Part shown: piece by piece, positions 268 to 62,214 of the stretch | How positions within the stretch are numbered: the first letter of the stretch is position 1 | Layout: the number at the start of each line of letters is the position of its first letter | Origin: Patescibacteria group bacterium | GTDB lineage: Bacteria; Patescibacteriota; Patescibacteriia; UBA9934 | Reading direction: 5' to 3' | Assembly (NCBI GenBank): GCA_041659765.1 | Contig: JBAZXR010000001.1 | Location: forward strand, 595,338-659,337 | DNA: 64,000 bases | Notes under the pieces: model-generated | Told to the model about the DNA's origin: nothing | Database searches by the model: none | The model's input: the letters and a program-made list of their open reading frames with translations, nothing else | Program-made: the position numbers and the translations under genes

Positions 268-350
268 CCAAAACAAAACACCAGCATTGCCTAGAAATTT
301 GAGTCGGATTACCTCCTAAAAATTTCTCGACAATACTGGTGTTTTGTTTT
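268..350. repeat. Family-D palindromic intergenic element (copy D1) between convergent gyrB and the membrane ORF
   Basis: Long hairpin AAAACAAAACACCAG...CTGGTGTTTTGTTTT enclosing GAGTCGGATTACCTCCTA. A near-identical inverted copy lies at 59964-60043. Confidence 0.7.
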
Positions 351-369
351 GGAAAGGCTCTGCCTTAGG

Positions 370-5788: not shown

Positions 5789-5859
5789 TCATCGGCCGCA
5801 AACCTGTTGCCCCAAAATTTGGAGTCGGCAACGAATAAGTACGCCTCCTAACAAATTTT

Positions 5860-6699
5860 GTGACAACAAGTTTTCGTCCTCCCTGTATGCTTATTGCATT
5901 CGTGCCGGTGCTGCATAAGGGCTATGTTGAGCTCTTCAGAAAGTATCCGGGGCAGCTCGGCCTTCTTGGAGCAGATGTTATCTCAGATTTCACCTCGCTC
6001 ATCAGGGACCTTCGAGTGATCGACCCGGCGGAGATGCGAAAGGCTGTTTTCTCTTTAGAATTGTTTGACGAGGTGTTTGTGATGAATAAGCTCGCTCTCG
6101 AAGCGCTCGACGGCCAGTCCCTCATCATGCCGGAAGACGACATTTCACACGCGATCCACGCCCAATATTTCCCGAACGCTGAAGTGATCTTTGAGCCGAT
6201 CTTTTTACGCTGGGACCGGCAGATCTCGACTGCTGAGCATATTGTCGACCCTCAGCGAGTGATCTCGCACGAAGAACTCCACAAACACCTCATCAACTTA
6301 GCGAGCATAGAATCTGCCAAAAGTGCTGACTGGTGGCGGCAGATTGGGGCGCTAATCGTGAAGGACGGCATTATCGTGGCCCAAGCGCACAACCATCATC
6401 TCCCCACAGACTTTCACCTGAGCGCGCATGGTGACCCCAGGAGCAACTTTGACGCCGGTACGAACCTAGACATCTACACGTCTATTCACGGCGAAGCAAG
6501 CGCTATTGCTCAAGCCGCACGAGACGGCATCGGTCTCAAGGGTTCCTCGCTGTACTCAACCGTCTTCCCCTGCCCCAACTGCGCCCGAATCATCTGCGAA
6601 GCGGGAATATCGAAGGTGTATTACGAGAAAGGCTACTCACGCGTAGATGCGGAACAAATTTTTAAGGCGTTTAACGTTGAGATAATTCTCGTCGCCTAA
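5860..6699 (+). CDS. dCMP/cytidine deaminase-family protein with ~140-aa N-terminal extension of unknown function
   Basis: C-terminal half has the zinc-deaminase motifs HGEASAIAQAA and LYSTVFPCPNCARIICEAGISKVYY (the H(A/G)E ... PCxxC pattern). The N-terminal 140 aa have no recognisable family. Confidence 0.7.
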   Translation: MTTSFRPPCMLIAFVPVLHKGYVELFRKYPGQLGLLGADVISDFTSLIRDLRVIDPAEMRKAVFSLELFDEVFVMNKLALEALDGQSLIMPEDDISHAIHAQYFPNAEVIFEPIFLRWDRQISTAEHIVDPQRVISHEELHKHLINLASIESAKSADWWRQIGALIVKDGIIVAQAHNHHLPTDFHLSAHGDPRSNFDAGTNLDIYTSIHGEASAIAQAARDGIGLKGSSLYSTVFPCPNCARIICEAGISKVYYEKGYSRVDAEQIFKAFNVEIILVA

Positions 6700-7136: not shown

Positions 7137-7142
7137 AGTTTC

Positions 7143-29154: not shown

Positions 29155-29164
29155 AGGCTATCGA

Positions 29165-29491: not shown

Positions 29492-29593
29492 AAATAATAG
29501 CGGGGGCTACGAAGCACCATCTTACAATCGAAAGCTCGAGGAGCAGCGGAGGAAGGAGGTGAAGTGAGATTTGGAGAGCATAGACATGACCAA

Positions 29594-33482: not shown

Positions 33483-33484
33483 AC

Positions 33485-36052: not shown

Positions 36053-36243
36053 AGTCCTGGAGATTCTATCACCGGTCTAAAAACCCCGCCACATCAAGTA
36101 AAGTCAGCTTGCCGACGAGTGCATGCCTTATGCGCAAAGTATCCCCTTCCCCCGAAGCCTATTATCAGCGAGTATAGGCATGGCGGATCGGGAGGTGGTC
36201 GAACCCGCGAAGTCAATTAATATTAACCCCAGTACACACACCT

Positions 36244-36453
36244 ATGACAGACATCAAAGGGAACCAGGACGGACCCGGCGGTCGAAACGAAACGTATAAA
36301 ATCGGTTCGCGCCGTGAAGTCCCCCGAGTGCAGGCAGTACGAGAGGTAAAGGCCGGAACACACGACGGAGCTCATGTGGTCAAAATCAATGGCCGGGAGT
36401 ACGTTCGTGACAATCCGGACAGCTCCAAGCGTGACAACGTCAACCAACGTTAA
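36244..36453 (+). CDS. small hypothetical protein (69 aa)
   Basis: Gly/Arg-rich N-terminus. A conserved-looking HVVKINGREYVRDNPDS core. Followed by a bidirectional terminator. Confidence 0.4.
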   Translation: MTDIKGNQDGPGGRNETYKIGSRREVPRVQAVREVKAGTHDGAHVVKINGREYVRDNPDSSKRDNVNQR

Positions 36454-36561
36454 GGTTAATGGAAAAGCTGCACGAGTAGATAGAGCCCGCTCGGAAGGAG
36501 TAAATGAGGCAGTTGTAATCTGAAAATGGCGCTCGAAAGGTAGCACCTTCCAAAGTCACAC

Positions 36562-36590
36562 AAAACCCCGTCGGCCAGGCGGGGTTTTGC
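36562..36590. terminator. bidirectional terminator
   Basis: AAAACCCCG-TCGGCCAGG-CGGGGTTTT. Confidence 0.6.
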
Positions 36591-36699
36591 TTACGCTCTC
36601 TCTTCATCTTCGCGGTTTTGAAGTCTTCGCCTCCCCTATAAAGGGACTGCTGCGGGTGCCCGCCGTAGTCAGTAAACCTATGGCTTTAAACATCTGCGC

Positions 36700-38256
36700 T
36701 TACTGCGTCTTCTCACCTGTGAGTAAAAAGTCTAACTCGTTGTCAAAGATTCTTTTAAATTCCGATCGTGGATCCGCATGATCAATAATCTGTTTTGCAA
36801 CTAGATGGGCGTATTTATCTTTAATTATTCCCTCAGGATAATTAATCCTGTGATCTACGCTGCATCCAGAAAGTTCAGCATCGAAATCATTCTTCATTTC
36901 ATTATCGTAGTAATCTTCAATCTGCTTCCTTGATAATACAACGAAACGTTTGGCCGCGATATCCACGTTCATCTTCTGCATCTTCTTGTATTCGGGAGTA
37001 TTTTGGTATTCAGGATCAGTGGGGCTATCAATGATAATGCTGTATTTATCGTAGTAAAATGGGTTGCACTTAAGGAGTGTCTGCTCGGTGTTGAACCTTC
37101 GAATGTGTTCTGCAAAAAGTGGTACATTATTTGCCCCTGCGGCTGAAATAAACCCCCAATTCTTCACGATCCCTTTCTTCTTTAATGCGTCAAGCAATTT
37201 TTGAAGACTAGCCTCCTCGAGAAGACAATAATTTTCAACGTAGCCAAAATCCGTCTCGTCAGCCCCCACCATCTTTGCAGCAATATAGTTAACGCTCTGA
37301 TCATCGAACCCGTCGTTGCCTTTCCCCGGATTACCGTGCTCGTCTACGGTTTGTCCGCCATCAATTAAATATACCTTTTGATCTCTTGGAAAACTTCCGG
37401 ATTTCGAAACAATAAATGGCGAATGTGTAGTTACGAAAAACATTGCGTTATTGACTGATGATAAATCGTTTAAGATTTTTGGAACCAATTTTTGATACTC
37501 AGGGTGAAGAGATGTTTCCGGTTCCTCGATGCAGATGATGTGAAAATAATTTGGGACCTCCGGTCTATCGTTCCTTTTGTAGGACTCCAAATCATTGATC
37601 AATTTCTGCAAATTGAAATAAATCGAAATAAGGCGGATTTGTCCAGACGACAATGCCTTGAGATTAATTCTAGAGCCATCTTCAAGAAGTAACTGAATTG
37701 ATTCAACGCCCGCTGCCGATCTCATTACGTTCGTCACGGGAGAGTTGGTGTATCGATGTCTATTAATGAAATCTCTTAGATCACGTTCTAAAATGAAACT
37801 CGGCAACTTATCAAGATTGATCGCGAGACCCTCCTTGTGGGGCAACGTTCGTCTTGTGTCACTGAAATCGAAATATCGGGCAATATCTCCTAGGGGGAGA
37901 GTTGTGGCCCCTCCTTCAGCCTTCTGCATAACAGCTTTCCCATTTTTAATGAGTGAGGGATCCAGATGCACGTTTACTGTATTGCCTATTCCTTCCGGCT
38001 CGTCATATGAATACGAGAAGTTGAAGTCTGGATGGAATACTTCGAGAGGATCGCCAAAGGCCTCGTCGATGTTGGCGTCACTACGATTGTAATATTGGGA
38101 ATTAAAAGCCATCATGATCAATTCGAGAACCGAGCTTTTTCCTGCGCCGTTTTTTCCAATTAAATAATTGACCTTCTTTAATTTTGTAATTTCAAATGAT
38201 GAAGCCTTGATATTTTTATACCCAGAGATACTTAATTTGCTCAACATAAACTCCAT
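36700..38256 (-). CDS. ABC-type AAA ATPase of the OLD/AAA_15-21 family with a possible C-terminal Toprim-like domain (putative anti-phage defence)
   Basis: Walker A LIGKNGAGKSSVLE, ABC signature-like ALSSGQIRLISIY, Walker B IICIEEPETSLHP, H-loop VTTHSP. The C-terminal ~200 aa carry Toprim-like acidic residues (CLLEEAS ... IIIDSPTDPE). Confidence 0.6.
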   Translation of the reverse strand: MEFMLSKLSISGYKNIKASSFEITKLKKVNYLIGKNGAGKSSVLELIMMAFNSQYYNRSDANIDEAFGDPLEVFHPDFNFSYSYDEPEGIGNTVNVHLDPSLIKNGKAVMQKAEGGATTLPLGDIARYFDFSDTRRTLPHKEGLAINLDKLPSFILERDLRDFINRHRYTNSPVTNVMRSAAGVESIQLLLEDGSRINLKALSSGQIRLISIYFNLQKLINDLESYKRNDRPEVPNYFHIICIEEPETSLHPEYQKLVPKILNDLSSVNNAMFFVTTHSPFIVSKSGSFPRDQKVYLIDGGQTVDEHGNPGKGNDGFDDQSVNYIAAKMVGADETDFGYVENYCLLEEASLQKLLDALKKKGIVKNWGFISAAGANNVPLFAEHIRRFNTEQTLLKCNPFYYDKYSIIIDSPTDPEYQNTPEYKKMQKMNVDIAAKRFVVLSRKQIEDYYDNEMKNDFDAELSGCSVDHRINYPEGIIKDKYAHLVAKQIIDHADPRSEFKRIFDNELDFLLTGEKTQ

Positions 38257-41039: not shown

Positions 41040-43460
41040 CTACCCCCTCAACGCCGCACCGAATTTGCCTTCGAGAGCCGTCGTGATGCGCTTAATTTCA
41101 TTTTCTACCTCGTCGCTCGTCAGTGTTCGATCATTAGCCGAAAAGGTCAGAGAAAGGGTCAACGACTTCTTACCGGACTCGACTCCTGCGCCGCGGTAAA
41201 TGTCAGTCAGCGAGATGTCGGTGAGTAACGGGCCAGCGACAGCGGCGGCGATTTCGTCGTAGGCGGTGCGTTCGTTCAACATGAAAGACAAGTCTCGTCG
41301 AGAAGCTGGGAAGGCACTGAGGAGTTCGTAGCGGAGAGCTTTTTTGAGATGCGGCAGAAGGGCTTCGAGGTCTAGGTCGATAAGGAAGACCTGCTTCTCA
41401 AGTCCGAAAGCACGTTCGTAGGCAGGCGCAACTTCCCCCATCATGCCAACAAGGGTGCGGACGCCGTTAATCTCGGCATGAATGTCCGCAGCGCGGCTGG
41501 GGTGATAGCGTGGAGTGTCCTGTACGCGGGTGAGCGAGAAGGCGACGCCGGTTTCTTTGCCGAGGCGTTCGAGCGTGCCCTTGAGGCGCATAAAAGCGGC
41601 CTCGGAGTTGTCGTAGCCGTAGTCGGCGATAACTAAACGATACTGTTCGAGAGGTAGGTTGCTGGTTGCGGGTTGCAGGTTAGAGAGGAGATGCACGCGA
41701 GAGAGTTCGAAAATACGAGCCGAAGGAGAGGTAGCCTGGTTCTTTTCGATATCCCGAAGAATCGAGGGAACTAGCGTGGGGCGCAGGTAGCTCAAGTCTT
41801 CGGCAAGCGGGTTGAGCAGCTTAACTGCATCAAGCGGGGTGATGCCGTAGCGTTCCAAGTCCTTGCCGTCAATGAGCGAAACGCCGAAGAACTCGGTATA
41901 ACCAAGAGATGCAAGAACGCGCTTCAGTTTGCGTTCCCAAACGACTGCAACGTCATTAACTGCTGGAGGAGGCGTCACGGCAGGCAACGTGCTCGGCATG
42001 TTGTGGTAGCCGTAGATGCGCGCAACTTCTTCGGTGAGATCAACCTCGGACTCAATGTCGTGATCACGCCAGAATGGAACGGTGGCCGTGATGATGTGGC
42101 CTTTCTTCGTCAGCATGAAGCCGAGCTTCGTCAGAATCTTCTCGATCTGTTCGTCCGAAATATCAACGCCGATTCTTGAGCGAATCTTCTTCGTAGACGT
42201 CTTGTACACGCGAGGTTTATACGCCTTCTCTTTTTCGTGGCGCGTGTCTGACAGTCCTTCGACGGTACCGCCAGCGAGTTGTTGTACAAGCTCAAGTGCG
42301 CGCGCCATGGCAATTGGCAACGCCTCCGTGGACAAACCTTTTTCGAAGACTAACTGAGAGTCAGAGTAAAGGTTCAGGTCGCGTGCGGTTCTGCGAACAG
42401 AGACGGCATCAAAAGCGGCTGCCTCGAAAACAACCGTCGTCGTTTCGTTCGTGGTCGAGCTCGCTTCCCCGCCCATGACACCAGCCACGGCCATCGGTCC
42501 TTCTTGGTCAGCAATGATGAGGTTTGTCTTTGAAAGTTCGTATTCCTTGCCATCGAGGGCTTTGAGCTTCTCCCCCTTCTGCGCGTCACGAATCACAATC
42601 TGATTACCGCGGATTTTGCTTGCGTCAAAGGCGTGCATCGGCTGGCCGAGCTCATGCAAGACCAAGTTTGTGATGTCAACAATGTTATTAATCGGCCGAT
42701 GACCAGCGAGCAACAATTTCTTCTGAAGCCACCACGGTGATGGGCCGACTTTTACGTTTTTTACCACGGCTGCCATGTAGCGTGGACACTTTTTGGAGTT
42801 GATCGAGACCCTGAAACCCTGAACCTCCTCCGACTCCTCCTTGGAAAGGAGGAGAGGAGCGAAAGTGAACTGACCATCGGTCGAGGCTGAACCTTCGCGG
42901 GCGAGACCGACGATGCTCATGCAGTCGGGGCGATTTGTAGTTACCTCGATATCAAAAATGGTGTCATTGAGTTCAAGTGCTTCGACAATCGGCGTGCCGG
43001 CTTTTGCGTCGGTTACTTTCGAAAGATCCCAAATCTCATGTTCGCCAGCGGGAATCTTGTCGAAACCGACTTCGGCTGCCGCGCAAATCATGCCAATGCT
43101 CTTTACTCCACGGATTTCAACCTCGGCGAGCGTGACCAGTTCGCCCTCACCATGCCACTTAACCTTTGCGCCCGGGAGCGCTACGAACACGCGCTGGCCA
43201 ACTTCAAGATTCGATCCGCCACACACAACTTCGACAGTCTTCTCGCCAATATCCGTCACCGCAATGCGAAGTTTGTTCGCATTGGGGTGCGCTTTGATCT
43301 CCTTGATAACGCCGACCACCATGTGTTCAAATTTGCCCCAAAGAGCGTCGATTTTTTCGACGGACATGGACTTGAGCGAGAGTTCTTTAGCAAACTCATC
43401 CGCAGAAAGCGTGGTGTTCAAGTATTCGCGGATCCAATTGTAAGAGGCGAGGATGTTCAT
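41040..43460 (-). CDS. pheT: phenylalanyl-tRNA synthetase beta subunit
   Basis: 806 aa with an N-terminal tRNA-binding domain (MNILASYNWIREYL...), B3/4, B5 and a C-terminal FDX-ACB domain. Confidence 0.92.
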   Translation of the reverse strand: MNILASYNWIREYLNTTLSADEFAKELSLKSMSVEKIDALWGKFEHMVVGVIKEIKAHPNANKLRIAVTDIGEKTVEVVCGGSNLEVGQRVFVALPGAKVKWHGEGELVTLAEVEIRGVKSIGMICAAAEVGFDKIPAGEHEIWDLSKVTDAKAGTPIVEALELNDTIFDIEVTTNRPDCMSIVGLAREGSASTDGQFTFAPLLLSKEESEEVQGFRVSINSKKCPRYMAAVVKNVKVGPSPWWLQKKLLLAGHRPINNIVDITNLVLHELGQPMHAFDASKIRGNQIVIRDAQKGEKLKALDGKEYELSKTNLIIADQEGPMAVAGVMGGEASSTTNETTTVVFEAAAFDAVSVRRTARDLNLYSDSQLVFEKGLSTEALPIAMARALELVQQLAGGTVEGLSDTRHEKEKAYKPRVYKTSTKKIRSRIGVDISDEQIEKILTKLGFMLTKKGHIITATVPFWRDHDIESEVDLTEEVARIYGYHNMPSTLPAVTPPPAVNDVAVVWERKLKRVLASLGYTEFFGVSLIDGKDLERYGITPLDAVKLLNPLAEDLSYLRPTLVPSILRDIEKNQATSPSARIFELSRVHLLSNLQPATSNLPLEQYRLVIADYGYDNSEAAFMRLKGTLERLGKETGVAFSLTRVQDTPRYHPSRAADIHAEINGVRTLVGMMGEVAPAYERAFGLEKQVFLIDLDLEALLPHLKKALRYELLSAFPASRRDLSFMLNERTAYDEIAAAVAGPLLTDISLTDIYRGAGVESGKKSLTLSLTFSANDRTLTSDEVENEIKRITTALEGKFGAALRG

Positions 43461-43468
43461 AGTCGATA

Positions 43469-43560
43469 GCTGAAAAGTTGAAAAGGTTGAAAAAGCTGTA
43501 AAGTGGGAATCTGATTGAATTACTTTTTTAACTTTCTTTGGCTTTTTTAACTTTTTTAAC
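43469..43560. repeat. Family-E AT-rich inverted-repeat element (copy E1) between pheS and pheT
   Basis: AAAAGTTGAAAAGGTTGAAAAAGCTGTAAAG ... CTTTTTTAACTTTCTTTGGCTTTTTTAACTTTTTTAAC. The arms match the element at 60044-60138. Confidence 0.65.
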
Positions 43561-43561
43561 T

Positions 43562-44644
43562 CTAAAACTGTTCAAGAAACCTCAAATCATTCTTATACAT
43601 GATGCGGATGTCGTCGATGTTTAAACCGGAACGCATCATAGCGGTGCGCTCAACTCCCCAACCGAAGGCAAAACCTTGATACTCTTTGGGATCAAGTCCG
43701 CCGGCTTTCAAAACATTCGGATGCACCATGCCGGCGCCGCCGAGTTCAAGCCAACCAGCTTTACAAAGCTTACATTTCACACCAGCGACAAGTCCTGTGC
43801 CTTCGCACATACCGCAAGAAATGTCGAGTTCAAAGCTCGGCTCGGTAAAGCGGAAATGATATGGACGCAAACGGGTAACGCGCCCTTCGCCGAAGAATTG
43901 TTTTGCGAAGTAATCGCAAACGCCCTTGAGTTCCGTGACGGTCGCGGTTTTGTCGATAACTAAACCTTCGAACTGGTGGAACATCGAGAGATGACGAGGT
44001 GTGGATTGTCGACGATAGCATTTGCCGATGTTGATCATGCGAATTGGCAACTGGCCTTTCTCCATCTCGCGTACCTGTGCGTTACTTGTGTGTGGAGTTA
44101 ATACAATCTTGCCTTTTTCGCCTGTCGCGGTTGTTGGTTGTCGGCCGTCGGTCGTCGAGGCGACAAAAAATGTTTCCCAATCATCACGAGCCGGATGATC
44201 CTTTGGCATGTTGAGCGACTCGAACGCGTAATAATCCCAATCGATCTCGGGATGACGAGCGCGGACAAAGCCGATGCGCGAAAAAATATCGGAAATTTCC
44301 TCGATCGCCTGGCTCGTAATATGGAGATGGCCGACAGCGGGCTCGGTTCCTGGCAAAGAAATGTCCAGCCATTCTTTTTCTGCACGTGAAGCAGACTCCG
44401 TGGCGTCCAGTCTCGCCTTTGCGGCCTCGAAAGCTCCCTCTATGGCAGCTTTCACTTCATTGGCCTTCTGTCCGGCAGCTCTCTTTTCTTCGTTCGATAA
44501 GCTTGGCAAGTCAGACATGATGTCCGCCAGTCTTCCCTTTCGGCCAAGGAACGCAACTCTGGAAGCCTCAAGTTCTTCCGCGTTCGCGATTGTCGAAAAT
44601 GCTTTGAGGCACTCGGTTTCAAGTTCTTGTAGTCGGTTGATCAT
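43562..44644 (-). CDS. pheS: phenylalanyl-tRNA synthetase alpha subunit
   Basis: Class II core with FRFTEPSFELD and GAGMVHPNVL motifs. Confidence 0.92.
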   Translation of the reverse strand: MINRLQELETECLKAFSTIANAEELEASRVAFLGRKGRLADIMSDLPSLSNEEKRAAGQKANEVKAAIEGAFEAAKARLDATESASRAEKEWLDISLPGTEPAVGHLHITSQAIEEISDIFSRIGFVRARHPEIDWDYYAFESLNMPKDHPARDDWETFFVASTTDGRQPTTATGEKGKIVLTPHTSNAQVREMEKGQLPIRMINIGKCYRRQSTPRHLSMFHQFEGLVIDKTATVTELKGVCDYFAKQFFGEGRVTRLRPYHFRFTEPSFELDISCGMCEGTGLVAGVKCKLCKAGWLELGGAGMVHPNVLKAGGLDPKEYQGFAFGWGVERTAMMRSGLNIDDIRIMYKNDLRFLEQF

Positions 44645-44662: not shown

Positions 44663-44738
44663 GTCATCCTGAGGAGCTCCGAGCGACGAAGGATCCGATT
44701 GGGCAACCATTCAGATTCTTCGCTCCGCTCAGAATGAC
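44663..44738. repeat. Family-A palindromic intergenic element (copy A1, inverted relative to A2)
   Basis: GTCATCCTGAGGAGCTCCGAGCGACGAAGGATCCGATTGGGCAACCATTCAGATTCTTCGCTCCGCTCAGAATGAC. Its reverse complement is about 92% identical to 47821-47893. Confidence 0.8.
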
Positions 44739-47820: not shown

Positions 47821-47893
47821 GTCATTCTGAGCGTAGCGAAGAATCTGAATGGTCAACCAATCAGATCCTTCGTCGCGGAGCTCCTCAGGATGA
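47821..47893. repeat. Family-A palindromic intergenic element (copy A2)
   Basis: GTCATTCTGAGCGTAGCGAAGAATCTGAATGGTCAACCAATCAGATCCTTCGTCGCGGAGCTCCTCAGGATGAC. The left and right halves are mutually complementary. Confidence 0.8.
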
Positions 47894-48774: not shown

Positions 48775-48788
48775 GCCGTCTCCACTCT

Positions 48789-48864
48789 GAGCCTTGCGAA
48801 GAGTCCGACCCTCAGAGGGGAAAGTCGGATCCTTCGCTCTCGCTCAGGATGGGAACCATCGATA
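48789..48864. repeat. Family-B palindromic intergenic element (copy B2)
   Basis: CTCTGAGCCTTGCGAAGAGTCCGACCCTCAGAGGGGAAAGTCGGATCCTTCGCTCTCGCTCAGGATGGGA. About 95% identical to B1 at 7143-7216. Confidence 0.8.
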
Positions 48865-55387: not shown

Positions 55388-55390
55388 CAT

Positions 55391-56662
55391 ATGTTTGTCT
55401 GCTCGCACTGCGACGCCCAGGTCCTTAAGTGGTCTGGGCGATGTATAGAATGTGGAAAATGGGGAACGTTGACCGAGGAGGACGGCCACGCGCCGTCTTC
55501 TTTATCTCAACAAAAATTGTCCTCTAAACCGGCGCCCGTTTTAAAGTTGGGCGAAGCATCCGCCACGGTAACTACACCTATCCCCACAGGTCTTTCCGAG
55601 CTTGATCGAGTTCTGGGCGGAGGCATCGTGCCCGGATCAGTCACCTTACTTGCTGGCGAACCCGGAATCGGCAAGTCGACAATCGTTGCACAAATCGCCG
55701 GCTTCCAGAGCGCGTACTATGCGTCCGGCGAAGAGAGCGAAGGCCAAGTTCGCCTGCGGTTTGAACGCCTCGGCATTAACCCGTCGACTATTTTGTTTTC
55801 GAACGCTGTCGACGTTGGCGCGATCATTGCCGCGGCGAAAGAAGCTAAGCCGTCTATTGTCATTGTCGATTCTATTCAAACGATGATGGTGGCGGAGGCT
55901 GACGCATTTCCAGGGACGCCGACCGCGGTGCGTGCGGCCACGACCGAGCTGATTAGTTTTGCAAAATCCACCAACACGCCTGTTTTAATCATCGGCCAAG
56001 TAACTAAAGAAGGAACCGTGGCCGGTCCAAAGACACTCGAACATCTAGTCGACACCTTGCTCACCCTCGAAGGCGACCCGGAATCGACCTATCGCATCCT
56101 TCGAGCGAACAAACATCGTTTTGGCAGTACGGAAGAAATAGGCGTTTTTGAAATGACAGAAAAAGGATTAATCGCAGTCGAGAATCCCTCGGCACGGTTC
56201 CTCAAGGAGCGGGTACCGGGCCCAGGCTCCGTGGTCACCTGCATCATGGAGGGCAGTCGACCGTTCCTAGTAGAAATCCAGGCGCTCGTCGATAAGTCTT
56301 TCTTCCCAAACCCGGTTCGACGAACCAGCGGCTATGACGCGTCTAGGCTTCAGATGGTCCTCGCGATTGTTTCCAAACGTGCTGGCATCAAGGTGTATGA
56401 CCAGGACGTATTCGTAAATGTTGTCGGTGGAATCAAGATCGATGAACACGCCGCGGACCTTGCCGTGGCAGCCGCCATCATCTCCGCCATCAATGACAAA
56501 ACCTTCCCCGCTGACACCATCATTGTGGGCGAACTAGGCCTGGGAGGCGAAGTGCGCTCCGTCCCCTTCCTCGAACGTCGGCTCAAAGAAGCCGAACGCC
56601 TCGGCATGGCTGCCTCGCTGACACCGAAGAATACTAAACACATCCGAGAGCTTGCTCGATAG
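55391..56662 (+). CDS. radA: DNA repair protein RadA/Sms
   Basis: Zinc finger CSHCDAQVLKWSGRCIECGKWG, Walker A GEPGIGKST, KNRFG motif, Lon-like C-terminal domain. Confidence 0.92.
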   Translation: MFVCSHCDAQVLKWSGRCIECGKWGTLTEEDGHAPSSLSQQKLSSKPAPVLKLGEASATVTTPIPTGLSELDRVLGGGIVPGSVTLLAGEPGIGKSTIVAQIAGFQSAYYASGEESEGQVRLRFERLGINPSTILFSNAVDVGAIIAAAKEAKPSIVIVDSIQTMMVAEADAFPGTPTAVRAATTELISFAKSTNTPVLIIGQVTKEGTVAGPKTLEHLVDTLLTLEGDPESTYRILRANKHRFGSTEEIGVFEMTEKGLIAVENPSARFLKERVPGPGSVVTCIMEGSRPFLVEIQALVDKSFFPNPVRRTSGYDASRLQMVLAIVSKRAGIKVYDQDVFVNVVGGIKIDEHAADLAVAAAIISAINDKTFPADTIIVGELGLGGEVRSVPFLERRLKEAERLGMAASLTPKNTKHIRELAR

Positions 56663-56668
56663 TATTTT

Positions 56669-56712
56669 CAGTCCTTGCGAGACCGGCTGTAATCAGCCGT
56701 GTCGAAGCAATC
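56669..56712. repeat. Family-C hairpin repeat (copy C1)
   Basis: CAGTCCTTGCGAGACCGGCTGTAATCAGCCGTGTCGAAGCAATC. Confidence 0.7.
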
Positions 56713-56715
56713 TCA

Positions 56716-57015
56716 ATGACATCTATGGAAGAGCGAAACTACTACGTGTATTTCATGACGAATCCTAATAATTCCGTCATCTATACAGGAGTTACGAATG
56801 ATATCTCTCGTCGAGTGCAGGAGCATAAGGAGAAGTATGTCGAAGGATTCACGAAGAGATACAACTGCACCAAACTTGTTTACGTTGAGGTGTTTTCGAC
56901 TGCATACGATGCCATTTCTCGCGAAAAACAGATCAAGGGCGGATCGAGGAATAAAAAGATGCTTCTTATTGCGCAGGAGAACCCAACGTGGCGAGATATT
57001 TCTGAGGAGCTCTAA
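56716..57015 (+). CDS. GIY-YIG nuclease superfamily protein (UPF0213/YhbQ-like, 99 aa)
   Basis: YYVYFMTNPNNSVIYTGVTNDISRRVQEHK...LVYVEVF...REKQIKGGSRNKK. Flanked on both sides by family-C repeats. Confidence 0.8.
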   Translation: MTSMEERNYYVYFMTNPNNSVIYTGVTNDISRRVQEHKEKYVEGFTKRYNCTKLVYVEVFSTAYDAISREKQIKGGSRNKKMLLIAQENPTWRDISEEL

Positions 57016-57022
57016 CTCCTTC

Positions 57023-57126
57023 AGTCTTTGCGAGACCAGACGTAATCGTCTGTGTCGAAGCAATCCCAATGCTATCTTTTTCGAGGTTGCTTCGAGTTGC
57101 CGTCAAACGGCACTCTCGCAAAGACC
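57023..57126. repeat. Two adjacent family-C hairpin repeats in opposite orientation (C2 direct, C3 inverted)
   Basis: CAGTCTTTGCGAGACCAGACGTAATCGTCTGTGTCGAAGCAATC, then ~20 nt, then TTGCTTCGAGTTGCCGTCAAACGGCACTCTCGCAAAGAC. Confidence 0.7.
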
Positions 57127-57184
57127 CTGACCACCCTCGCCTTCGCTCGGGGACCTGAACAATGCGGTATACTTAGGCAAAGTT

Positions 57185-58189
57185 TTGCCTATGGATCCGA
57201 ATGTCTTGTGGGGCATAGCAATTATTTGCGGCATCGTAGGTGCCATTCTTTTGTATCAGGGGAAATCGGGAGGATCTGGCAGTGTGAAGAAGTCGAGCAA
57301 ACCAAGCGCGTTTTCGACCGATCTCATCGACCAAGCCAAAAAAGGCAAACTTGATCCTTTTTCTGATCGCGAAGGCGAGATTGAGCGAACAATTCATATT
57401 CTTTTGCGTCGAAGTAAGAATAATCCCCTTCTAATCGGCGAGCCTGGAGTTGGCAAGACGGCGATCGTGCATGGACTCGCAGACAGAATCGCGAAAGGCG
57501 ATGTTCCAGCTTCGCTCAAAGACAAATCGCTTATTGCGATCAACCTAGCTTCCCTCTTTGGGGAGACGAAGTTCCGCGGAGAACTCGAGAAACGGGTCAG
57601 CGACTTTTTGAAAGACCTCGAAGGCCAGTCTCGAGAAACTATTTTGTTTATTGATGAAGTGCACATGATTGTTCAAGGCAGTGGCAGTGAAGGTTCACTA
57701 AATGTTACCGATTTGTTCAAGCCCGCCCTCGCGCGTGGCGATCTGCACATCATTGGCGCGACGACATGGGATGAATACGCGAAATACATCAAGACCGACG
57801 CGGCCCTCGATAGACGGTTCCAACCAGTACTCGTCGACGAGCCAGAGCCGGAGCAGGCGGTGCGGATGCTCAAAACACTCAGACCCGAATACGAAGCCTT
57901 TCACAAAGTAACTATTCCAGACGACGTGCTCAAAGAGGCGGTTCGACTATCTGACAAGTACATAAGAGGACGTTTCCTTCCGGACAAGGCGATCGATTTA
58001 ATCGACGAAGCCTCAGCCAAAGTATCAATTGAGTTCGAGGACAAACAACACGGCAAACATCTCGGGATTGTCCACGGTGCAGCCAAACAAACCAAACACC
58101 CCACAGTCACAAAAGACGACGTCGAAGACGTAGTAAACCAGTGGCGGGAACACATGGACGCGCAAAAATTACGACAAACCAATAAATAA
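57185..58189 (+). CDS. membrane-anchored single-module AAA+ protein homologous to Clp/Hsp100 NBD1
   Basis: N-terminal TM ([17 protein letters not shown]) replaces the Clp-N domain. Then [50 protein letters not shown]...[11 protein letters not shown]...[12 protein letters not shown]...ALDRRFQPV, which is colinear with NBD1 of the clpC-like gene at 48871. Confidence 0.7.
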
Positions 58190-58190
58190 T

Positions 58191-59900
58191 ATGAAAACAA
58201 CTTCATCAACCGCAGTACAAACAACAACAGCTACCCTCGTCGGAATTGCCATCATGGCCACCGGATTACTCGCGGCCGCAGCCGGGTTTGTCGTCGCGGC
58301 AAGTAATACAGGGCCGGTTCTCAACATTAAGGCAACGCCTCTACCTGGCGCACACGGAACCGTACAGGGCGCTCAACGAGAACCCATGCTCGGCTTCACG
58401 CTCGAGGCGAAAAATAAGGCTATCCTCATCGAATCGCTCACCTTTAATGTCCTGGCGGACAGCGACGGGAACTTCAAGGAAATTCAAAACGATCTCTCCG
58501 CCAGTGATCTCCTCCTGTCGTGCATGCTGATCAACAAGCGAACCGGGGCTGCAGTAGCGAGCCCGGTTTCTGTAACCAACGGGAACATGATCACATTTGA
58601 AGATAAGTTTACCCTTACTGCAAACTCAATCACCCCTTTCACCATTCTCTGCGACCATGCAAATACACTCATCACTAATCCGTACATCATGGGCGTTGAG
58701 CTGACCGGATATCCAGGGTATGTCGTGGCGACGGTCGCGGCTACCGGAAACAATTTGCCGGACAACCGTATCAATGTAGGAACTATCACGGATGCTGGAG
58801 TGAACGTAGCACTCACCACCTCGGTAACGATTCGTTCACGCGGCATGCTCCAGGTTTCATTAAGCCCCATCGCCCCAAGCAGCGACCTCACCATCAAAAA
58901 TAGCTCCGTCAAAGCAGCAGCATTTAAATTCACCGCGGCAGGTGAAGCTTACACAATCCAAAAACTCACCATTCAAAATATAGGCGATGACGCAGCGGTG
59001 AAAACAATCAAAATCACCTATAAGAACGCCTCTGGAGCCACAATTACAAACACCTCGACCCTTTCGAACCATTTTGCACAGTTCTCTGGGATTGATATTG
59101 CAGTGCCGACTGGCGCAGCGAACGCTGCAACGGTTGAAGTAACTGTAGATACAGCCGATATCAGCGCTACGGGCTCCGGCTCGTCCGGACAGACCTTTAG
59201 TGAAGCAATCGCCTTCTTGCCGGGCGGACTCTTTAAGGCCGTAGGCAACACCTCAGGCTCCGTTATCACCGAAAGTGAAATGGGCTACGGTTATCAGGGC
59301 GGAACCTTTACCCTCCGTGAAACTCGCCCGACCATTACCCTCCATTCAGCAAGCCCAACCGGTCCAGCTGTACCAGGTCGCAACGAGGTCTTACGATTCA
59401 ACGTAGCTGCTGATCCAGCCGAAGATCTGAGCATGTCCCAAATAACCTTCAAAGTTAACGCAACGTCCGTTGACTCGCCGTGGGCATCATGCGGTTCTTC
59501 AACAGTTAGCGGACTAGGCGATGTCACCAAATGGGAACTTAAAGACCTCACAACCGGTGAAGTGCTAACCAATAACAATTCTTGGATAATCATGAATGCG
59601 GATGGCGGCCAGTGTGGTCCGACTGATCGTGTGCAATCCGTGATCGCCTACGCACTCGCAAACCTGGTACATGGCACCATCTTCGCAGGAACAACTCACA
59701 CGCTCTCACTTATTGTAGATTCAACCGGCGCAAGCCAAAGTCAGGACGATCAAATTCAAGTTGAAATAACAAGTGAGCCAACACATGAGTTTCCACTTCT
59801 TCATAGCATCCAGTGGCGCGAAGGAGTTAATGGACCAGATCTCATAAACGGTAGTTTTATTAAGAACCTCCCAATTCGTGGCTTTACGCTCCAGTTCTAA
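58191..59900 (+). CDS. large Thr/Ser/Ala-rich cell-surface protein (569 aa), N-terminal signal anchor
   Basis: Starts 2 nt after the stop of the AAA gene. N-terminal hydrophobic segment. Predicted beta-rich extracellular repeats. No family recognised. Confidence 0.55.
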   Translation: MKTTSSTAVQTTTATLVGIAIMATGLLAAAAGFVVAASNTGPVLNIKATPLPGAHGTVQGAQREPMLGFTLEAKNKAILIESLTFNVLADSDGNFKEIQNDLSASDLLLSCMLINKRTGAAVASPVSVTNGNMITFEDKFTLTANSITPFTILCDHANTLITNPYIMGVELTGYPGYVVATVAATGNNLPDNRINVGTITDAGVNVALTTSVTIRSRGMLQVSLSPIAPSSDLTIKNSSVKAAAFKFTAAGEAYTIQKLTIQNIGDDAAVKTIKITYKNASGATITNTSTLSNHFAQFSGIDIAVPTGAANAATVEVTVDTADISATGSGSSGQTFSEAIAFLPGGLFKAVGNTSGSVITESEMGYGYQGGTFTLRETRPTITLHSASPTGPAVPGRNEVLRFNVAADPAEDLSMSQITFKVNATSVDSPWASCGSSTVSGLGDVTKWELKDLTTGEVLTNNNSWIIMNADGGQCGPTDRVQSVIAYALANLVHGTIFAGTTHTLSLIVDSTGASQSQDDQIQVEITSEPTHEFPLLHSIQWREGVNGPDLINGSFIKNLPIRGFTLQF

Positions 59901-59910
59901 AACCAAAAGC

Positions 59911-59949
59911 TTGCTTCGAGCTGCCGTCGAACGGCACTCTCGCAAAGAC
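59911..59949. repeat. Family-C hairpin repeat (copy C4, inverted)
   Basis: TTGCTTCGAGCTGCCGTCGAACGGCACTCTCGCAAAGAC. Confidence 0.7.
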
Positions 59950-59963
59950 TGAGCAGACAAGGA

Positions 59964-60043
59964 AAAACAAAAACCAGTGTTGGCGAGAAAATGTTAGGAG
60001 GTAATCCGACTCCATTTTCGAGACAATACTGGTCTTTTGTTTT
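59964..60043. repeat. Family-D palindromic element (copy D2, inverted relative to D1)
   Basis: AAAACAAAAACCAG...TAGGAGGTAATCCGACTC...CTGGTCTTTTGTTTT. Confidence 0.75.
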
Positions 60044-60138
60044 AGTTGAAAAAGTTAAAAAAGCCGAAGAAGGTTAAAAAGTAAATGCACCATCGGGATG
60101 GTACTTTACAGCTTTTTCAACTTTTTTAACTTTGTTAA
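60044..60138. repeat. Family-E AT-rich inverted-repeat element (copy E2)
   Basis: AGTTGAAAAAGTTAAAAAAGCCGAAGAAGGTTAAAAAGTAAA-[TGCACCATCGGGATGGTAC]-TTTACAGCTTTTTCAACTTTTTTAACTTTGTTAAC. Confidence 0.7.
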
Positions 60139-62214
60139 CTACTCAAAATGCACCTCGTCCACGTACTCGTAGAGACGCTCGCGGAGTTTGGGATAGTTCG
60201 TCAGGTCTGGGCTTTCGTCGAGTAGCTCTTTAGAGAAGTCCTTAGCAAAGCTCATGAGGTCAATGTCGTTCATGGTGCCGAGCTTGAACTGGTCGAAGCC
60301 TGACTGGTTTGTGCCGAAGACGCTACCGGGGCCACGGAGTTGGAGATCGCGCTCAGCTAGATCGAATCCATCCTGGCTGCCTTCAATAGCCTTCATGCGC
60401 TCACGAGCCACGTCGCCGAGCATCCCTGACGGATGCAGATAACAATAGCTCTGATGTTCGCCACGACCAACGCGTCCGCGGAGCTGGTGGAGCTGAGCCA
60501 GACCGAAACGCTCGGCACCTTCCACGTACATGACCGTGGCGTTCGGCACGTCCACACCAACCTCGACCACAGTCGTCGAGATAAGCATGTTGGATCTCCC
60601 CTCGGCGAACTCACGCATAACAGCATCCTTCTCTGCCGTCTTCATTCGACCGTGCAACATGGAGACCTTGTAGCCACGGAAAGCCTCAAGCATGAATTCC
60701 TTGTACACCTCATGAACCGAGTTCACACCGAGCGCGTCGGATTCCTCGATCAAAGGACAGACCACAAAAATCTGCCGACCTTCATTCATCTGCTCGCGCA
60801 TCATTTGATAAATGGGCTCCTCACGGCCGAGCTCGACAACTTCCGTCAAAATCGGCTTACGGCCAGCCGGGTACTCGTTCAAAATAGAACGGTCGAGATC
60901 GCCGTAAAGCACGAGAGCAAGAGAGCGAGGGATCGGCGTAGCAGTCATCGAAAGAAGATGCGGGATGCCATCCTGGTCACCCTGTTTGTCCTTGAGCGCT
61001 TGGCGCTGTTTCACACCAAAGCGGTGTTGTTCATCGACGACGATAAGTCCGAGGCGATCGAAAAGTACGTCCTGCGTTAGCAAGGCGTGCGTGCCGACCA
61101 CAAATTGCGCTCCCCCGTTTTTAAGCGCTGAAAGTAGCTGTGCTTTTGTCACCTCTTTACCGCCCACGCGACGCTTTGTCCTCGTATAAAGCGCGATCGT
61201 TAGTCTGCTACCAAATAGCTTCTGCAAAGTCTGGGCGTGTTGTTCAGCCAGGATTTCCGTGGGCGCCAGCATAGCCGTCTGCCAACCGTCTTTCTGCGCG
61301 TTACAAGCAACCAGCGCGGCCACCACCGTCTTACCACTGCCTACGTCACCTTCCAGGAGACGGTTCATCGGTTCCGGGCGGTTCATGTCCTTAATAATCG
61401 CCCAGACCGCTTTCTTCTGCGCGCCGGTGAGCTCAAAAGGCAACCCAGCGACGAGTTCCTTCATGTACGCCTCGTTGAACGGAACCTTTGGCGCCTTGCG
61501 CATTTTCAATTCTCGACGGCTCTTGGCATGGAGTAATTGGTGCAAGAAAAACTCGTCGAATTTTAATCGGCGCAGCGCTTTGTCTTTTTCTTCAGTCGTC
61601 GACGGAAAATGGAGCTCAGTAATGGCTCCGTGGAGTCCCATGAGCTCAACCTCGGACACGATCTTGTCAGGCATCCATTCCTCAACCTCTTTCACCGCAC
61701 CAAGAGAGGCCTCAGCCACCTTTCTACGAACCTTTTGTGTCAACGCACCGGTCAATTTATAAATCGGAACAATCCGGCCGGTTTCTTTGCCGATTTTTCC
61801 ACTGCCAACCACCTCATACGCTGGGTTTACGAGCGAGAGCCCGTAGCGATCATCCACCTTACCGGCCATGGAAATAATTTGACCCGGCTTCAAAACCTTA
61901 GTTAAAAAACCTTGATGAAACCACACGCCTTTAATCGCGCCAGTGCCGTCCTCGATAATCGCTTCCGTCACCATCATCTTTCGAGACTTCTGACTCTGGC
62001 GGTTCTCGATATTCATGATCGTGCCCTGAACCGTCACCTTCTGGCCAGGCTTCACGTCGGCAATAACGACCGCGTGCGAGAGGTCATCGTAACGAAACGG
62101 AAAATCAAAGAGCGCTTCGTGTAGTGTGTTGATGCCAAGCCGGGCAAAGTCTTTCGCCTTTGCGGCTCCGATCGTCGCTATAGAAGCGATGGTGTCCTTC
62201 AAATGGATCGCCAT
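60139..62214 (-). CDS. recG: ATP-dependent DNA helicase RecG
   Basis: Wedge domain, GDVGSGKT, DEQHRFGV, TATPIPRS and a TRG motif. 691 aa. Confidence 0.92.
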   Translation of the reverse strand: MAIHLKDTIASIATIGAAKAKDFARLGINTLHEALFDFPFRYDDLSHAVVIADVKPGQKVTVQGTIMNIENRQSQKSRKMMVTEAIIEDGTGAIKGVWFHQGFLTKVLKPGQIISMAGKVDDRYGLSLVNPAYEVVGSGKIGKETGRIVPIYKLTGALTQKVRRKVAEASLGAVKEVEEWMPDKIVSEVELMGLHGAITELHFPSTTEEKDKALRRLKFDEFFLHQLLHAKSRRELKMRKAPKVPFNEAYMKELVAGLPFELTGAQKKAVWAIIKDMNRPEPMNRLLEGDVGSGKTVVAALVACNAQKDGWQTAMLAPTEILAEQHAQTLQKLFGSRLTIALYTRTKRRVGGKEVTKAQLLSALKNGGAQFVVGTHALLTQDVLFDRLGLIVVDEQHRFGVKQRQALKDKQGDQDGIPHLLSMTATPIPRSLALVLYGDLDRSILNEYPAGRKPILTEVVELGREEPIYQMMREQMNEGRQIFVVCPLIEESDALGVNSVHEVYKEFMLEAFRGYKVSMLHGRMKTAEKDAVMREFAEGRSNMLISTTVVEVGVDVPNATVMYVEGAERFGLAQLHQLRGRVGRGEHQSYCYLHPSGMLGDVARERMKAIEGSQDGFDLAERDLQLRGPGSVFGTNQSGFDQFKLGTMNDIDLMSFAKDFSKELLDESPDLTNYPKLRERLYEYVDEVHFE

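What the first reader, a model, noticed from the sequence alone, without database searches (positions are those of the whole stretch)
59901..60138. Repeat hotspot: three different palindromic element families (C, D, E) stacked back-to-back upstream of recG
The 238-nt gap between the surface-protein gene and recG consists almost entirely of a family-C hairpin (also at 56669-56712 and 57023-57126), then a family-D element (an inverted copy of the one at 268-350), then an AT-rich family-E inverted repeat (also at 43469-43560). Family D encloses GAGTCGGATTACCTCCTA; its reverse complement is TAGGAGGTAATCC. That resembles the 16S rRNA 3' end / anti-SD (GGATCACCTCCTTA) in one orientation and a perfect Shine-Dalgarno in the other. 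This could be coincidence or a translational decoy. Nested insertion of small elements into each other is typical of MITEs.
Basis: seen in the sequence. Interest (0 to 1): 0.6.

Follow-up and report, generated by a model that had tools for sequence, protein, structure and literature searches.

The report
Three hairpin repeats between convergent genes
The short gap where two genes of a tiny Patescibacteria genome meet tail to tail is packed with three unrelated hairpin-forming repeats, and the middle one belongs to an apparently undescribed family with a nearly constant tip and a fast-changing, always-paired stem.

Summary
The gap 59901-60138 contains copies of three repeat families, at the stated coordinates and far above chance. 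One detail is wrong: recG is on the minus strand, so the gap is downstream of recG, between two convergent genes. The elements lie side by side, not nested.

- **C (59910-59951):** its other copies flank a 99-aa single-domain GIY-YIG nuclease gene. That layout matches the recently described Ssn nuclease/NTS systems.
- **E (60043-60141):** an AT-rich palindrome missing from both matching sites in a close relative. It supplies recG's stop codon.
- **D (59964-60043):** the resident element, and the only occupant of this gap in a relative with 88% identical RecG. Across 17 copies from three Uhrbacteria-like genomes, 29 of 30 stem pairs covary. The tip (UUAGGAGGUAAUCCGACUC) stays nearly constant.

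The Shine-Dalgarno look of D is probably incidental. AGGAGG is predicted to pair inside an apical helix containing tandem G·A pairs, and genes here show no Shine-Dalgarno enrichment.

Near-identical D copies sit at unrelated loci, so D spreads as a unit. In convergent gaps its base carries A/T tracts like a bidirectional terminator. D matches no Rfam family and no paper in the library searched. Its function is inferred, not shown.

The parts
58191..59900 (+).
   Evidence: ORF list. No Pfam or NCBIfam hit. The translation shows a hydrophobic N-terminal segment. The relative L018 has five tandem paralogues.
59910..59951 (-). Family C copy. The consensus on the minus strand is CAGTCTTTGCGAGA-[variable 6-7-bp hairpin]-(C)TCGAAGCAA.
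   Evidence: 93% identical to 57084-57125. The 4-copy alignment has invariant flanks and a compensating inner stem. Absent from the same gap in relative L018.
59964..60043 (+). Family D hairpin. The strand given is the better-folding one, with the tip reading UUAGGAGGUAAUCCGACUC.
   Evidence: Covariance-model score 78 bits. RNA folding energy is -33.2 kcal/mol on the plus strand against -24.1 on the minus strand. An orthologous D fills this gap in L018.
59994..60012 (+). Conserved apical module of D. It is predicted to fold as A-U, G-C, G.A, A.G, G-C, G-C capped by a UAAU loop.
   Evidence: Identical in 17 copies, although these were collected by this 19-mer. Variants in L018, L007 and window 5789-5884 keep GGAGG and CCGAC. 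Fold.
60043..60141 (.). Family E: a 99-nt AT-rich palindromic element. Its last 3 nt (CTA on the plus strand) form the recG stop codon TAG.
   Evidence: 81% identical to 43474-43561. Hairpin z=-5 to -7. Absent from L018 at this site.
60139..62214 (-). recG (ATP-dependent DNA helicase), whose 3' end faces the gap.
   Evidence: Pfam RecG_wedge, DEAD, Helicase_C and RecG_dom3_C. 100% match to a Patescibacteria RecG on an 897-kb contig.
268..352 (-). Second D copy, filling the convergent gap between the gyrB 3' end and ORF 370-825.
   Evidence: Covariance-model score 90.6 bits. RNA folding energy -48.1 against -36.6 kcal/mol. An orthologous copy follows gyrB in L012.
5789..5884 (-). Third, divergent D copy. 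The UAAU loop is replaced by a 15-nt insertion that extends the apical helix. It lies between two plus-strand genes.
   Evidence: Covariance-model score 37.4 bits. Sequence and fold.
56667..56712 (+). Family C copy immediately upstream of the GIY-YIG gene.
56716..57015 (+). 99-aa single-domain GIY-YIG nuclease gene flanked by C copies.
   Evidence: Pfam PF01541, E=3e-18. PDB 1zg2 (UPF0213), E=2e-6.
57020..57125 (.). Two C copies downstream of the GIY-YIG gene: 57020-57065 direct and 57084-57125 inverted. The inverted copy and 59910-59951 are direct repeats that bracket the AAA-ATPase and 569-aa genes.
43468..43561 (.). Second E copy, filling the pheS-pheT intercistronic gap.
   Evidence: pheS and pheT identified by Pfam. 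The relative has a family-A element here instead.

Best explanation
The gap is the shared 3' end of two convergent genes in a small, gene-dense Patescibacteria (Uhrbacteria-like) genome. It has collected three independent hairpin-forming repeats.

**D, the resident element.** D is an ~80-85-nt hairpin from a REP/REPIN-like dispersed family.
- Shown: the ~30-bp stem is kept paired by compensatory change.
- Shown: the apical ~19 nt, a G.A motif and an A/U helix below the tip are conserved.
- Shown: whole hairpins are copied to unrelated loci.
- Shown: copies are retained at orthologous gene ends.
- Shown: copies in convergent gaps have an A-rich 5' base and a T-rich 3' base.
- Inferred: in such gaps D acts as the bidirectional intrinsic terminator and 3'-end protecting hairpin for both genes, much as REP/BIME elements or inverted uptake-sequence pairs are used elsewhere.
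- Inferred: the conserved tip is the determinant recognised by whatever protein copies or binds the element.
- Inferred: the Shine-Dalgarno or anti-Shine-Dalgarno look is a by-product of a GGAG/CGAC tandem-G.A helix.

**C.** C is a later insertion. It is the hairpin repeat tied to the neighbouring 99-aa GIY-YIG nuclease gene, in a repeat-gene-repeat layout like Ssn/NTS. Inferred: it is the single-stranded-DNA target of that nuclease.

**E.** E is a later insertion of an AT-rich palindromic, MITE-like element that landed on the recG stop codon.
For: **D structure**
- In 17 copies, 29 of 30 stem pairs show double changes. 85-88% of cells are paired, against 55-57% in shuffles and 37-53% when partners are slid.
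- Hairpin z-scores are -4 to -11.5.

**D strand asymmetry**
- There are 23 G.U cells on the AGGAGG strand against 6 on the other (binomial p=0.002).
- A G.A mismatch sits at a fixed position in 11 of 17 copies, as a tandem G.A/A.G in 8.
- RNA folding energy is 9-12 kcal/mol better on that strand. DNA folding energy is 1-4 kcal/mol better.

**D copying**
- L005 vs L008 is 95% and L005 vs L012 is 90% over 81 nt, with no flank similarity. L006 and L007, from two different genomes, share only the element.
- There is a subfamily with 67-90% arm identity. The remaining copies are near random, with a median of 36%.

**D retention**
- D follows gyrB in both the window and L012.
- D sits in the recG gap in both the window and L018.

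**D context**
- About 11 of 20 copies lie in convergent gaps, and D often fills the entire spacer.
- A T-rich base goes with a convergent context (Mann-Whitney p=0.0003).

**C**
- Copies lie on both sides of the GIY-YIG ORF.
- The published Ssn family shows the same layout (PMC11893778).

**C and E as insertions**
- Both are absent from the relative's recG gap.
- E is absent from the relative's pheS-pheT gap.
- Neither was found in 289 kb of relatives' loci.
Against: - No transcript data exist, so termination is inferred from anatomy only.
- Seven to nine D copies lack T-tracts, and some sit inside operons. Termination therefore cannot be the family's common function.
- The simple terminator scan does not flag D, because its loop exceeds the scan's 8-nt limit.
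- No target-site duplication, transposase or RAYT-like gene was found. The copying mechanism is unknown.
- In known REP and NTS families the stem sequence is conserved and the loop varies. D shows the opposite pattern.
- The 17 aligned D copies were collected by exact match to the 19-mer, so the tip's invariance is partly built in. Only 3 model-found copies test it.
- C does not match the published SRM consensus (0 hits). The GIY-YIG protein could not be placed in the cd10448 clade.
Confidence: 0.55

Rival explanations
1. D is primarily a strand-specific structured RNA, the strand whose tip reads UUAGGAGGUAAUCCGACUC. It would sit in 3' UTRs or between cistrons. Its apical helix, with two tandem-G.A motifs and a UAAU loop, would be the binding site of a dedicated RNA-binding protein or a processing signal. 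For example, it could be a ruler for RNase III cleavage of the long stem. Terminator use would be secondary.
For: - Overwhelming covariation.
- G.U and G.A features lie on one strand only, and the strand difference is larger with RNA than with DNA energy parameters.
- The apical helix is supported by an A-U to G-C change in L018 and by a helix-extending insertion at 5789-5884.
- A D-bearing genome encodes RNase III directly beside a D copy. RNase III is retained across Patescibacteria (PMC12641178).
Against: - In co-directional gaps the element is found in both orientations. The other strand is sense in window 5789, L013, L014a and probably L004. The AGGAGG strand is sense in L006, L007b and L014b.
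- Near-identical copies at unrelated loci need a DNA-level copying step.
- Flanking genes have no common function.
Confidence: 0.25
2. D is a translational decoy or rRNA mimic. In one orientation its tip would act as a free Shine-Dalgarno sequence that docks 30S subunits. In the other it would mimic the 16S 3' tail and sequester Shine-Dalgarno sequences or proteins that bind the tail.
For: - The tip contains AGGAGGU. Its complement GGAUUACCUCCUAA matches 12 of 14 positions of the E. coli 16S 3' end as recalled from general knowledge.
- The motif is kept across genomes.
Against: - AGGAGG is predicted to be base-paired within the apical helix, with one compensatory change.
- Genes in this window show no Shine-Dalgarno enrichment (4 of 37 against a 12% background), and many look leaderless. 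There is little for a decoy to compete with.
- The element occurs in both orientations.
- The same 15-mer in 44 viral contigs is never in such a hairpin. There it is often a plain ribosome-binding site.
Confidence: 0.05
3. D acts at the DNA level, like NTS/SRM. It would be a single-stranded-DNA hairpin that is the specific target of a site-specific nuclease or recombinase. It would modulate recombination or uptake of DNA in these competence-dependent epibionts. Its place at gene ends would only reflect where insertions are tolerated.
For: - Orientation is independent of transcription.
- Strand-specific G.T and G.A features are also stabilising in DNA.
- D co-resides with other hairpin repeats and a GIY-YIG nuclease.
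- D and family A share ATCCGACTC(C).
- Ssn nucleases act on one DNA strand only (PMC11893778).
Against: - For Ssn, changing the stem sequence while keeping the hairpin abolishes activity. D stems vary freely.
- No gene is consistently adjacent to D.
- No bias relative to GC skew was seen.
- The link between a T-rich base and convergent gaps argues for selection at the RNA level.
Confidence: 0.15

Closest known systems
REP / BIME / REPIN elements (repetitive extragenic palindromes, mobilised by RAYT transposases)
   Same: - Short extragenic palindromes that are dispersed and found at gene ends and between cistrons.
- Copied as units.
- Strand-asymmetric hairpins.
- Known to serve as terminators or mRNA 3'-end stabilisers (PMC2817692, PMC3116915, PMC3184786, listed; roles from general knowledge).
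   Different: - In REPs the stem sequence and a GTAG or CGTC tag are conserved while the loop varies. In D the tip is conserved and the ~20-bp outer stem is free to vary.
- No RAYT gene was seen.
- Copy number is low: 3 in 64 kb here and about 10 exact-core copies in a 0.9-Mb genome.
Ssn nuclease with NTS/SRM hairpin repeats (Chenal et al. 2025, PMC11893778)
   Same: Applies to family C. A ~94-100-aa single-domain GIY-YIG gene is flanked on both sides by its own oriented 20-50-nt hairpin repeat. Further copies bracket a membrane-protein gene, in a repeat-gene-repeat layout.
   Different: - C has conserved flanks and a variable inner stem. It does not match the published SRM degenerate pattern (0 hits).
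- Clade membership of the protein (cd10448) and single-stranded-DNA cleavage are untested.
- Patescibacteria are not mentioned in the paper.
Bacterial MITEs that fold as long RNA hairpins (Correia/NEMIS in Neisseria, ERIC/IRU in enterobacteria)
   Same: Applies to E, and partly to D. These are ~100-nt palindromic elements in transcribed intergenic DNA. They show presence/absence differences between relatives, and insertions abut stop and start codons.
   Different: - Correia elements have defined terminal inverted repeats, a TA duplication and an IHF site.
- For E the TA..TA flank is ambiguous, with only two copies known.
- For D no duplication is seen.
Bidirectional intrinsic terminators, including inverted DNA-uptake-sequence pairs in Neisseria and Haemophilus
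   Same: Hairpins between convergent genes with an A-tract before and a T-tract after the stem, carrying a conserved sequence unrelated to termination.
   Different: - In uptake-sequence pairs the conserved sequence forms the stem. In D it forms the tip.
- D is far too rare to be an uptake signal.
Integron attC sites
   Same: Structure-conserved, sequence-variable hairpins located 3' of genes and read on one strand.
   Different: - attC conserves the base of the stem (R and L boxes) and varies the centre. D does the opposite.
- No integrase or cassette array is present here.

Membership tests
MITE | Terminal inverted repeats | tested here: met
   The arms of E are inverted arrays of AGTTRAAAAAG-type units. 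D is palindromic over its whole length. C has only an imperfect outer pairing.
MITE | Target-site duplication flanking each copy | tested here: inconclusive
   TA..TA flanks both E copies, but the boundaries are ambiguous because TTTTAG(AG)TT is shared, also with the empty site in L070. No duplication is visible for D or for C.
MITE | Multiple dispersed copies with unrelated flanks, and presence/absence between relatives | tested here: met
   D. C and E are absent from the relative's recG gap, and E is absent from its pheS-pheT gap.
MITE | A cognate autonomous element or transposase with the same ends | not tested
   Only 64 kb of the source genome is available. None was noticed in the window or the loci.
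REP/REPIN-RAYT | Conserved palindrome sequence with a GTAG or CGTC tag at one end | tested here: not met
   D outer arms have a median identity of 36% against 26% expected from composition. No common tag is seen in the flanks.
REP/REPIN-RAYT | A RAYT (IS200/IS605-like Y1 transposase) gene in the genome | not testable with these tools
   The whole source genome is not retrievable.
Ssn / SRM (family C with the GIY-YIG ORF) | Single-domain GIY-YIG protein of about 94-100 aa | tested here: met
   99 aa, with PF01541 covering residues 8-81 and no other domain.
Ssn / SRM (family C with the GIY-YIG ORF) | Gene flanked 5' and 3' by the same oriented hairpin repeat | tested here: met
   C copies at 56667-56712 and 57020-57065 in the same orientation, plus an inverted copy at 57084-57125.
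Ssn / SRM (family C with the GIY-YIG ORF) | Repeat matches the SRM degenerate consensus HGTCWYN(0-2)YYVSBRHN(0-5)WNVSBRGN(0-2)RNCYNB | tested here: not met
   0 matches in the window on both strands. Random sequences gave a mean of 0.44. Pattern taken.
Ssn / SRM (family C with the GIY-YIG ORF) | Protein belongs to the cd10448 clade and cleaves only single-stranded DNA next to the repeat | not testable with these tools
   There is no CDD search or biochemistry here. The nearest solved structure is UPF0213 (1zg2, E=2e-6).
Rfam structured RNA families | Match to any of 4227 covariance models | tested here: not met
   The only hit in the window at gathering thresholds is a SAM riboswitch elsewhere. 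A sensitive scan of 59800-60250 gave only sub-threshold generic microRNA-hairpin hits.
Intrinsic (bidirectional) terminator | Stable stem followed by a U-tract, on both strands | tested here: inconclusive
   The last 14 nt of the hairpin hold 6-11 T in 10 convergent-gap copies, against 2-7 T in the others. The simple scan does not flag D because its loop is too long. No 3'-end data exist.
Shine-Dalgarno / anti-Shine-Dalgarno mimic | Complementarity or identity to the organism's own 16S 3' end | not testable with these tools
Shine-Dalgarno / anti-Shine-Dalgarno mimic | Motif displayed single-stranded, in a genome that uses Shine-Dalgarno-led initiation | tested here: not met
   The motif is predicted to be paired in the apical helix. 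A Shine-Dalgarno 4-mer lies upstream of 4 of 37 ORFs, which equals background.

The most novel reading that the evidence does not exclude
D is an undescribed structured nucleic-acid module specific to Uhrbacteria-like Patescibacteria. It would be a long covarying hairpin whose apical helix (two tandem G.A motifs, a UAAU loop and an embedded AGGAGG) is the ligand of a dedicated partner. That partner would be a protein, or the otherwise idle anti-Shine-Dalgarno tail of the ribosome in a genome that does not use Shine-Dalgarno initiation. The module would ride on terminator hairpins and act as a post-transcriptional or ribosome-docking signal rather than as a passive repeat.
Probability: 0.25. 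Interest if true: 0.75.

Novelty: new variant of a known kind. Interest (0 to 1): 0.5.

Why it matters
Patescibacteria genomes are under 1 Mb and gene-dense, so non-coding DNA that persists is informative. This 64-kb window holds 13 copies of five hairpin repeat families.

- **Ssn-like systems:** the repeat-nuclease-repeat layout of the newly described Ssn single-stranded-DNA nucleases appears here, possibly with a different target motif. These bacteria depend on DNA uptake.
- **A testable new motif:** D has a conserved tip and a free but paired stem, the reverse of REP and NTS repeats. It has 29 of 30 covarying pairs and no match in Rfam or the literature searched.
- **Gene ends in these bacteria:** D may be part of how they terminate or process transcripts.
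- **A caution for motif reading:** a perfect AGGAGG can be a structural helix element in a genome that shows no Shine-Dalgarno use.

Tried and rejected
- **Source genome retrieval.** Exact-protein look-ups of RecG failed. No genome-wide census or 16S check was therefore possible.
- **Rfam.** Both the gathering scan and the sensitive scan found nothing relevant.
- **Metagenome scan of the 19-mer.** It returned two hits, both without a hairpin, as expected by chance. One genome hit (L009) is likewise chance.
- **Viral-contig scan of AGGAGGTAATCCGAC.** It returned 44 hits and none lies in a hairpin. I used this as a negative control.
- **Replication-strand bias of D.** None was found. The strand carrying the AGGAGG orientation has positive GC skew in 9 copies and negative in 11. 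GC skew does not switch within the window.
- **A gene-class theme among D neighbours.** None was found. Neighbours include gyrB, recG, rnc, adk/map, topA, CTP synthase, a transketolase subunit and peroxiredoxin.
- **My model that E truncated pheS.** I had proposed an original pheS-pheT ATGA overlap. This is rejected, because every PheS homologue ends in ..QF as in the window.
- **The published SRM pattern on families A, B and C.** It gave no matches.
- **Literature search.** The tip sequence and Patescibacteria hairpin repeats returned nothing relevant.
- **K-turn reading of the G.A motifs.** Rejected by inspection, because there is no 3-nt bulge next to the G.A pairs.

Full report
**Setting**

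The window has 50.6% GC. Its RecG is 100% identical to a protein annotated on an 897-kb contig of a 'Patescibacteria group bacterium', and more distant homologues are named Candidatus Uhrbacteria. The plus-strand ORF 58191-59900 encodes a 569-aa protein with a hydrophobic N-terminal anchor and no Pfam match. It ends at 59900. recG is the minus-strand ORF 60139-62214. The 238-nt gap therefore lies between two converging stop codons and is downstream of recG, not upstream.

**Observation**

A self-BLAST of the gap and the repeat finder confirm three families.
- C: 59908-59949 is 93% identical to 57084-57125 (E=9e-10) and inverted relative to 56667-56712 and 57020-57065.
- D: 59964-60046 is an inverted copy of 267-350 (86% over 84 nt, E=3e-19).
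- E: 60039-60159 matches 43449-43568 (76%, E=8e-19).

They lie side by side: C 59910-51, a 12-nt spacer, D 59964-60043, E 60043-60141. They are not nested. A covariance model later found a third, divergent D copy at 5789-5884. Rfam has nothing here.

**Family D: distribution**

The 19-mer GAGTCGGATTACCTCCTAA was scanned in one genome per species of GTDB. It hit two genomes repeatedly.
- A Candidatus Uhrbacteria MAG (CAWGHH01, four contigs of about 0.9 Mb) gave 9 matches.
- A MAG labelled Gammaproteobacteria (CAYGEQ01) gave 6 matches. One of its loci, L003, is 78-84% identical in DNA to window 55390-58158, so this MAG is a relative of the window's organism.

One further genome hit and two metagenome hits have no hairpin. 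About four such hits are expected by chance for a 19-mer in 596 Gb.

**Family D: structure**

In every real copy the 19-mer is the tip of a ~30-bp stem. The outer stem sequence differs from copy to copy but stays complementary.
- On the ungapped 17-copy alignment, 29 of 30 pairs show changes on both sides.
- 85-88% of cells are paired, against 55-57% after shuffling and 37-53% with slid partners.
- The 17 copies were collected by the exact 19-mer, so the tip's invariance is partly built in.
- Three copies found by the model test the tip independently. L018 has UUGGGAGGUAAUCCGACCA. L007 has CCAGGAGGUAAUCCGACUC. Window 5789-5884 keeps UUAGGAGG and CCGACUC but has 15 nt in place of UAAU.

**Family D: which strand folds**

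- Mismatches are G.U on the AGGAGG strand in 23 cells, against 6 on the other strand (binomial p=0.002).
- A G.A mismatch sits 7-8 bp below the tip in 11 of 17 copies, as a tandem G.A/A.G in 8.
- The AGGAGG strand folds 9-12 kcal/mol better as RNA and 1-4 kcal/mol better as DNA.
- On that strand the '19-nt loop' is predicted to fold further: A-U, G-C, G.A, A.G, G-C, G-C capped by UAAU.
- The L018 variant changes the A-U pair to G-C. The 15-nt insertion in the third window copy extends this helix.

AGGAGG is therefore most likely a helix strand, not a displayed Shine-Dalgarno sequence.

**Family D: Shine-Dalgarno use in this genome**

Only 4 of 37 ATG-start ORFs have GGAG, GAGG or AGGA at -20 to -4, equal to the 12% background. 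Many starts have a TAnnnT box 5-18 nt upstream, which suggests leaderless mRNAs. This weakens the decoy idea. The organism's 16S 3' end could not be obtained.

**Family D: context**

About 11 of 20 copies lie between convergent genes or gene ends and often fill the whole spacer. Examples are gyrB/ORF in the window, recG/surface gene in the window and L018, and tRNA-Arg/rnc in L010.
- In those copies the hairpin base is A-rich at the 5' end and T-rich at the 3' end, with 6-11 T in the last 14 nt.
- Copies inside co-directional gaps have 2-7 T (Mann-Whitney p=0.0003).
- This is the design of a bidirectional intrinsic terminator. The role is inferred, with no transcript data.
- In co-directional gaps both orientations occur.
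- There is no bias with GC skew.
- Neighbouring genes are unrelated housekeeping genes.
- Ordinary GC-rich terminators and other long hairpins also exist in these genomes.

**Family D: history**

D follows gyrB in both the window and the Uhrbacteria MAG (L012), and it fills the recG gap in the relative with 88% identical RecG (L018), where it is the only element. Relatives at 78-82% RecG identity have recG converging directly on radA and have no D there.

Whole hairpins are also copied.
- L005 vs L008 is 95% and L005 vs L012 is 90% over 81 nt, with unrelated flanks.
- L006 and L007b, from two different genomes, share only the element.
- Outer-arm identity splits into a 67-90% subfamily and near-random singletons.

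D is thus a dispersed, copied element with old, diversified lineages. It is REP/REPIN-like in behaviour but has the opposite conservation pattern. No target duplication or transposase was seen.

**Family C**

Four copies share invariant flanks (GTC.TTGCGAGA ... TCGAAGCAA) around a 6-7-bp inner stem that changes with compensation.
- Two direct copies flank a 99-aa single-domain GIY-YIG ORF (Pfam E=3e-18; nearest structure UPF0213 1zg2).
- An inverted copy follows.
- That inverted copy and the one in the gap are direct repeats bracketing the ClpB-like AAA ATPase and the 569-aa protein.

This is the repeat-nuclease-repeat and repeat-gene-repeat layout described for Ssn single-stranded-DNA nucleases and their NTS/SRM hairpins (PMC11893778). 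The published SRM pattern finds nothing in the window, and clade membership and activity are untested. C 'works like' an Ssn target, but membership is not established. C is absent from the relative's gap and from 289 kb of relatives' loci.

**Family E**

Two copies share arms built of AGTTRAAAAAG-type units in inverted arrays, around a variable GC mini-hairpin.
- E1 ends in CTA, which is recG's TAG stop. The relative ends RecG at the same residue with TGA followed directly by D.
- E2 fills the pheS-pheT gap. In the 87% relative that gap holds a family-A element instead.

E is therefore lineage-specific at both sites. TA..TA flanks are compatible with a TA duplication but are not proven.

**Verdict**

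The MITE-like reading is partly right. The rRNA-mimic reading is unlikely but not fully testable. The most notable result is family D, a covarying hairpin family with a conserved tandem-G.A tip. It has no match in Rfam 15 or in the paper library searched.

Noticed in passing
window 26473-26569 (+): SAM riboswitch (Rfam RF00162, 56 bits, E=2.6e-10) just upstream of ORF 26598-27557.
   Followed up: no
window, upstream of ORF starts (e.g. 62214 minus strand, 9784 plus strand, 51198 plus strand): No Shine-Dalgarno enrichment: 4 of 37 ORFs against a 12% background. Many starts have a TAnnnT box 5-18 nt before the ATG, which suggests widespread leaderless or near-leaderless mRNAs.
   Followed up: partly
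window 7141-7216 and 48779-48854 (family A); 44683-44738 and 47821-47876 (family B); L070 1889-1963 and 7093-7189: Two more long-hairpin repeat families with GCGAAG..CTTCGC and CTGAG..CTCAG frames. By eye they resemble NTS/SRM (GTCATTC..GAATC), but the published SRM pattern does not match them. Family A also occurs in the 87% relative, including its pheS-pheT gap.
   Followed up: partly
window 7185-7194 / 59994-60012; L070 7113-7124: Families A and D share ATCCGACTC(C), 9-10 nt. My rough chance estimate is 0.01-0.02. This may hint at a common recognition motif or a common origin.
   Followed up: no
window 28000-38000: A low-GC block (0.43-0.46 against 0.50-0.54 elsewhere) with strongly negative GC skew. 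It holds large minus-strand ORFs (31059-33482, 33485-36052) and may be acquired DNA.
   Followed up: no
L018 12159-21130; window 57185-59900: The relative carries five tandem paralogues (546-683 aa, no Pfam) of the window's single membrane-anchored 569-aa protein. They sit next to the same truncated ClpB-like AAA ATPase. In more distant relatives this whole block is missing and recG converges on radA.
   Followed up: partly
L014 882-1046; L010 795-959: Two D copies lie head to head upstream of topA. Another D copy is wedged exactly between the 3' end of tRNA-Arg and the stop codon of the RNase III gene.
   Followed up: partly
L003 6050-6119; L008 6802-6896; L013 675-746: Other very long, near-perfect intergenic hairpins (22-26-bp stems) without the D tip. 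Long hairpins seem to be a general feature of gene ends in these genomes.
   Followed up: no
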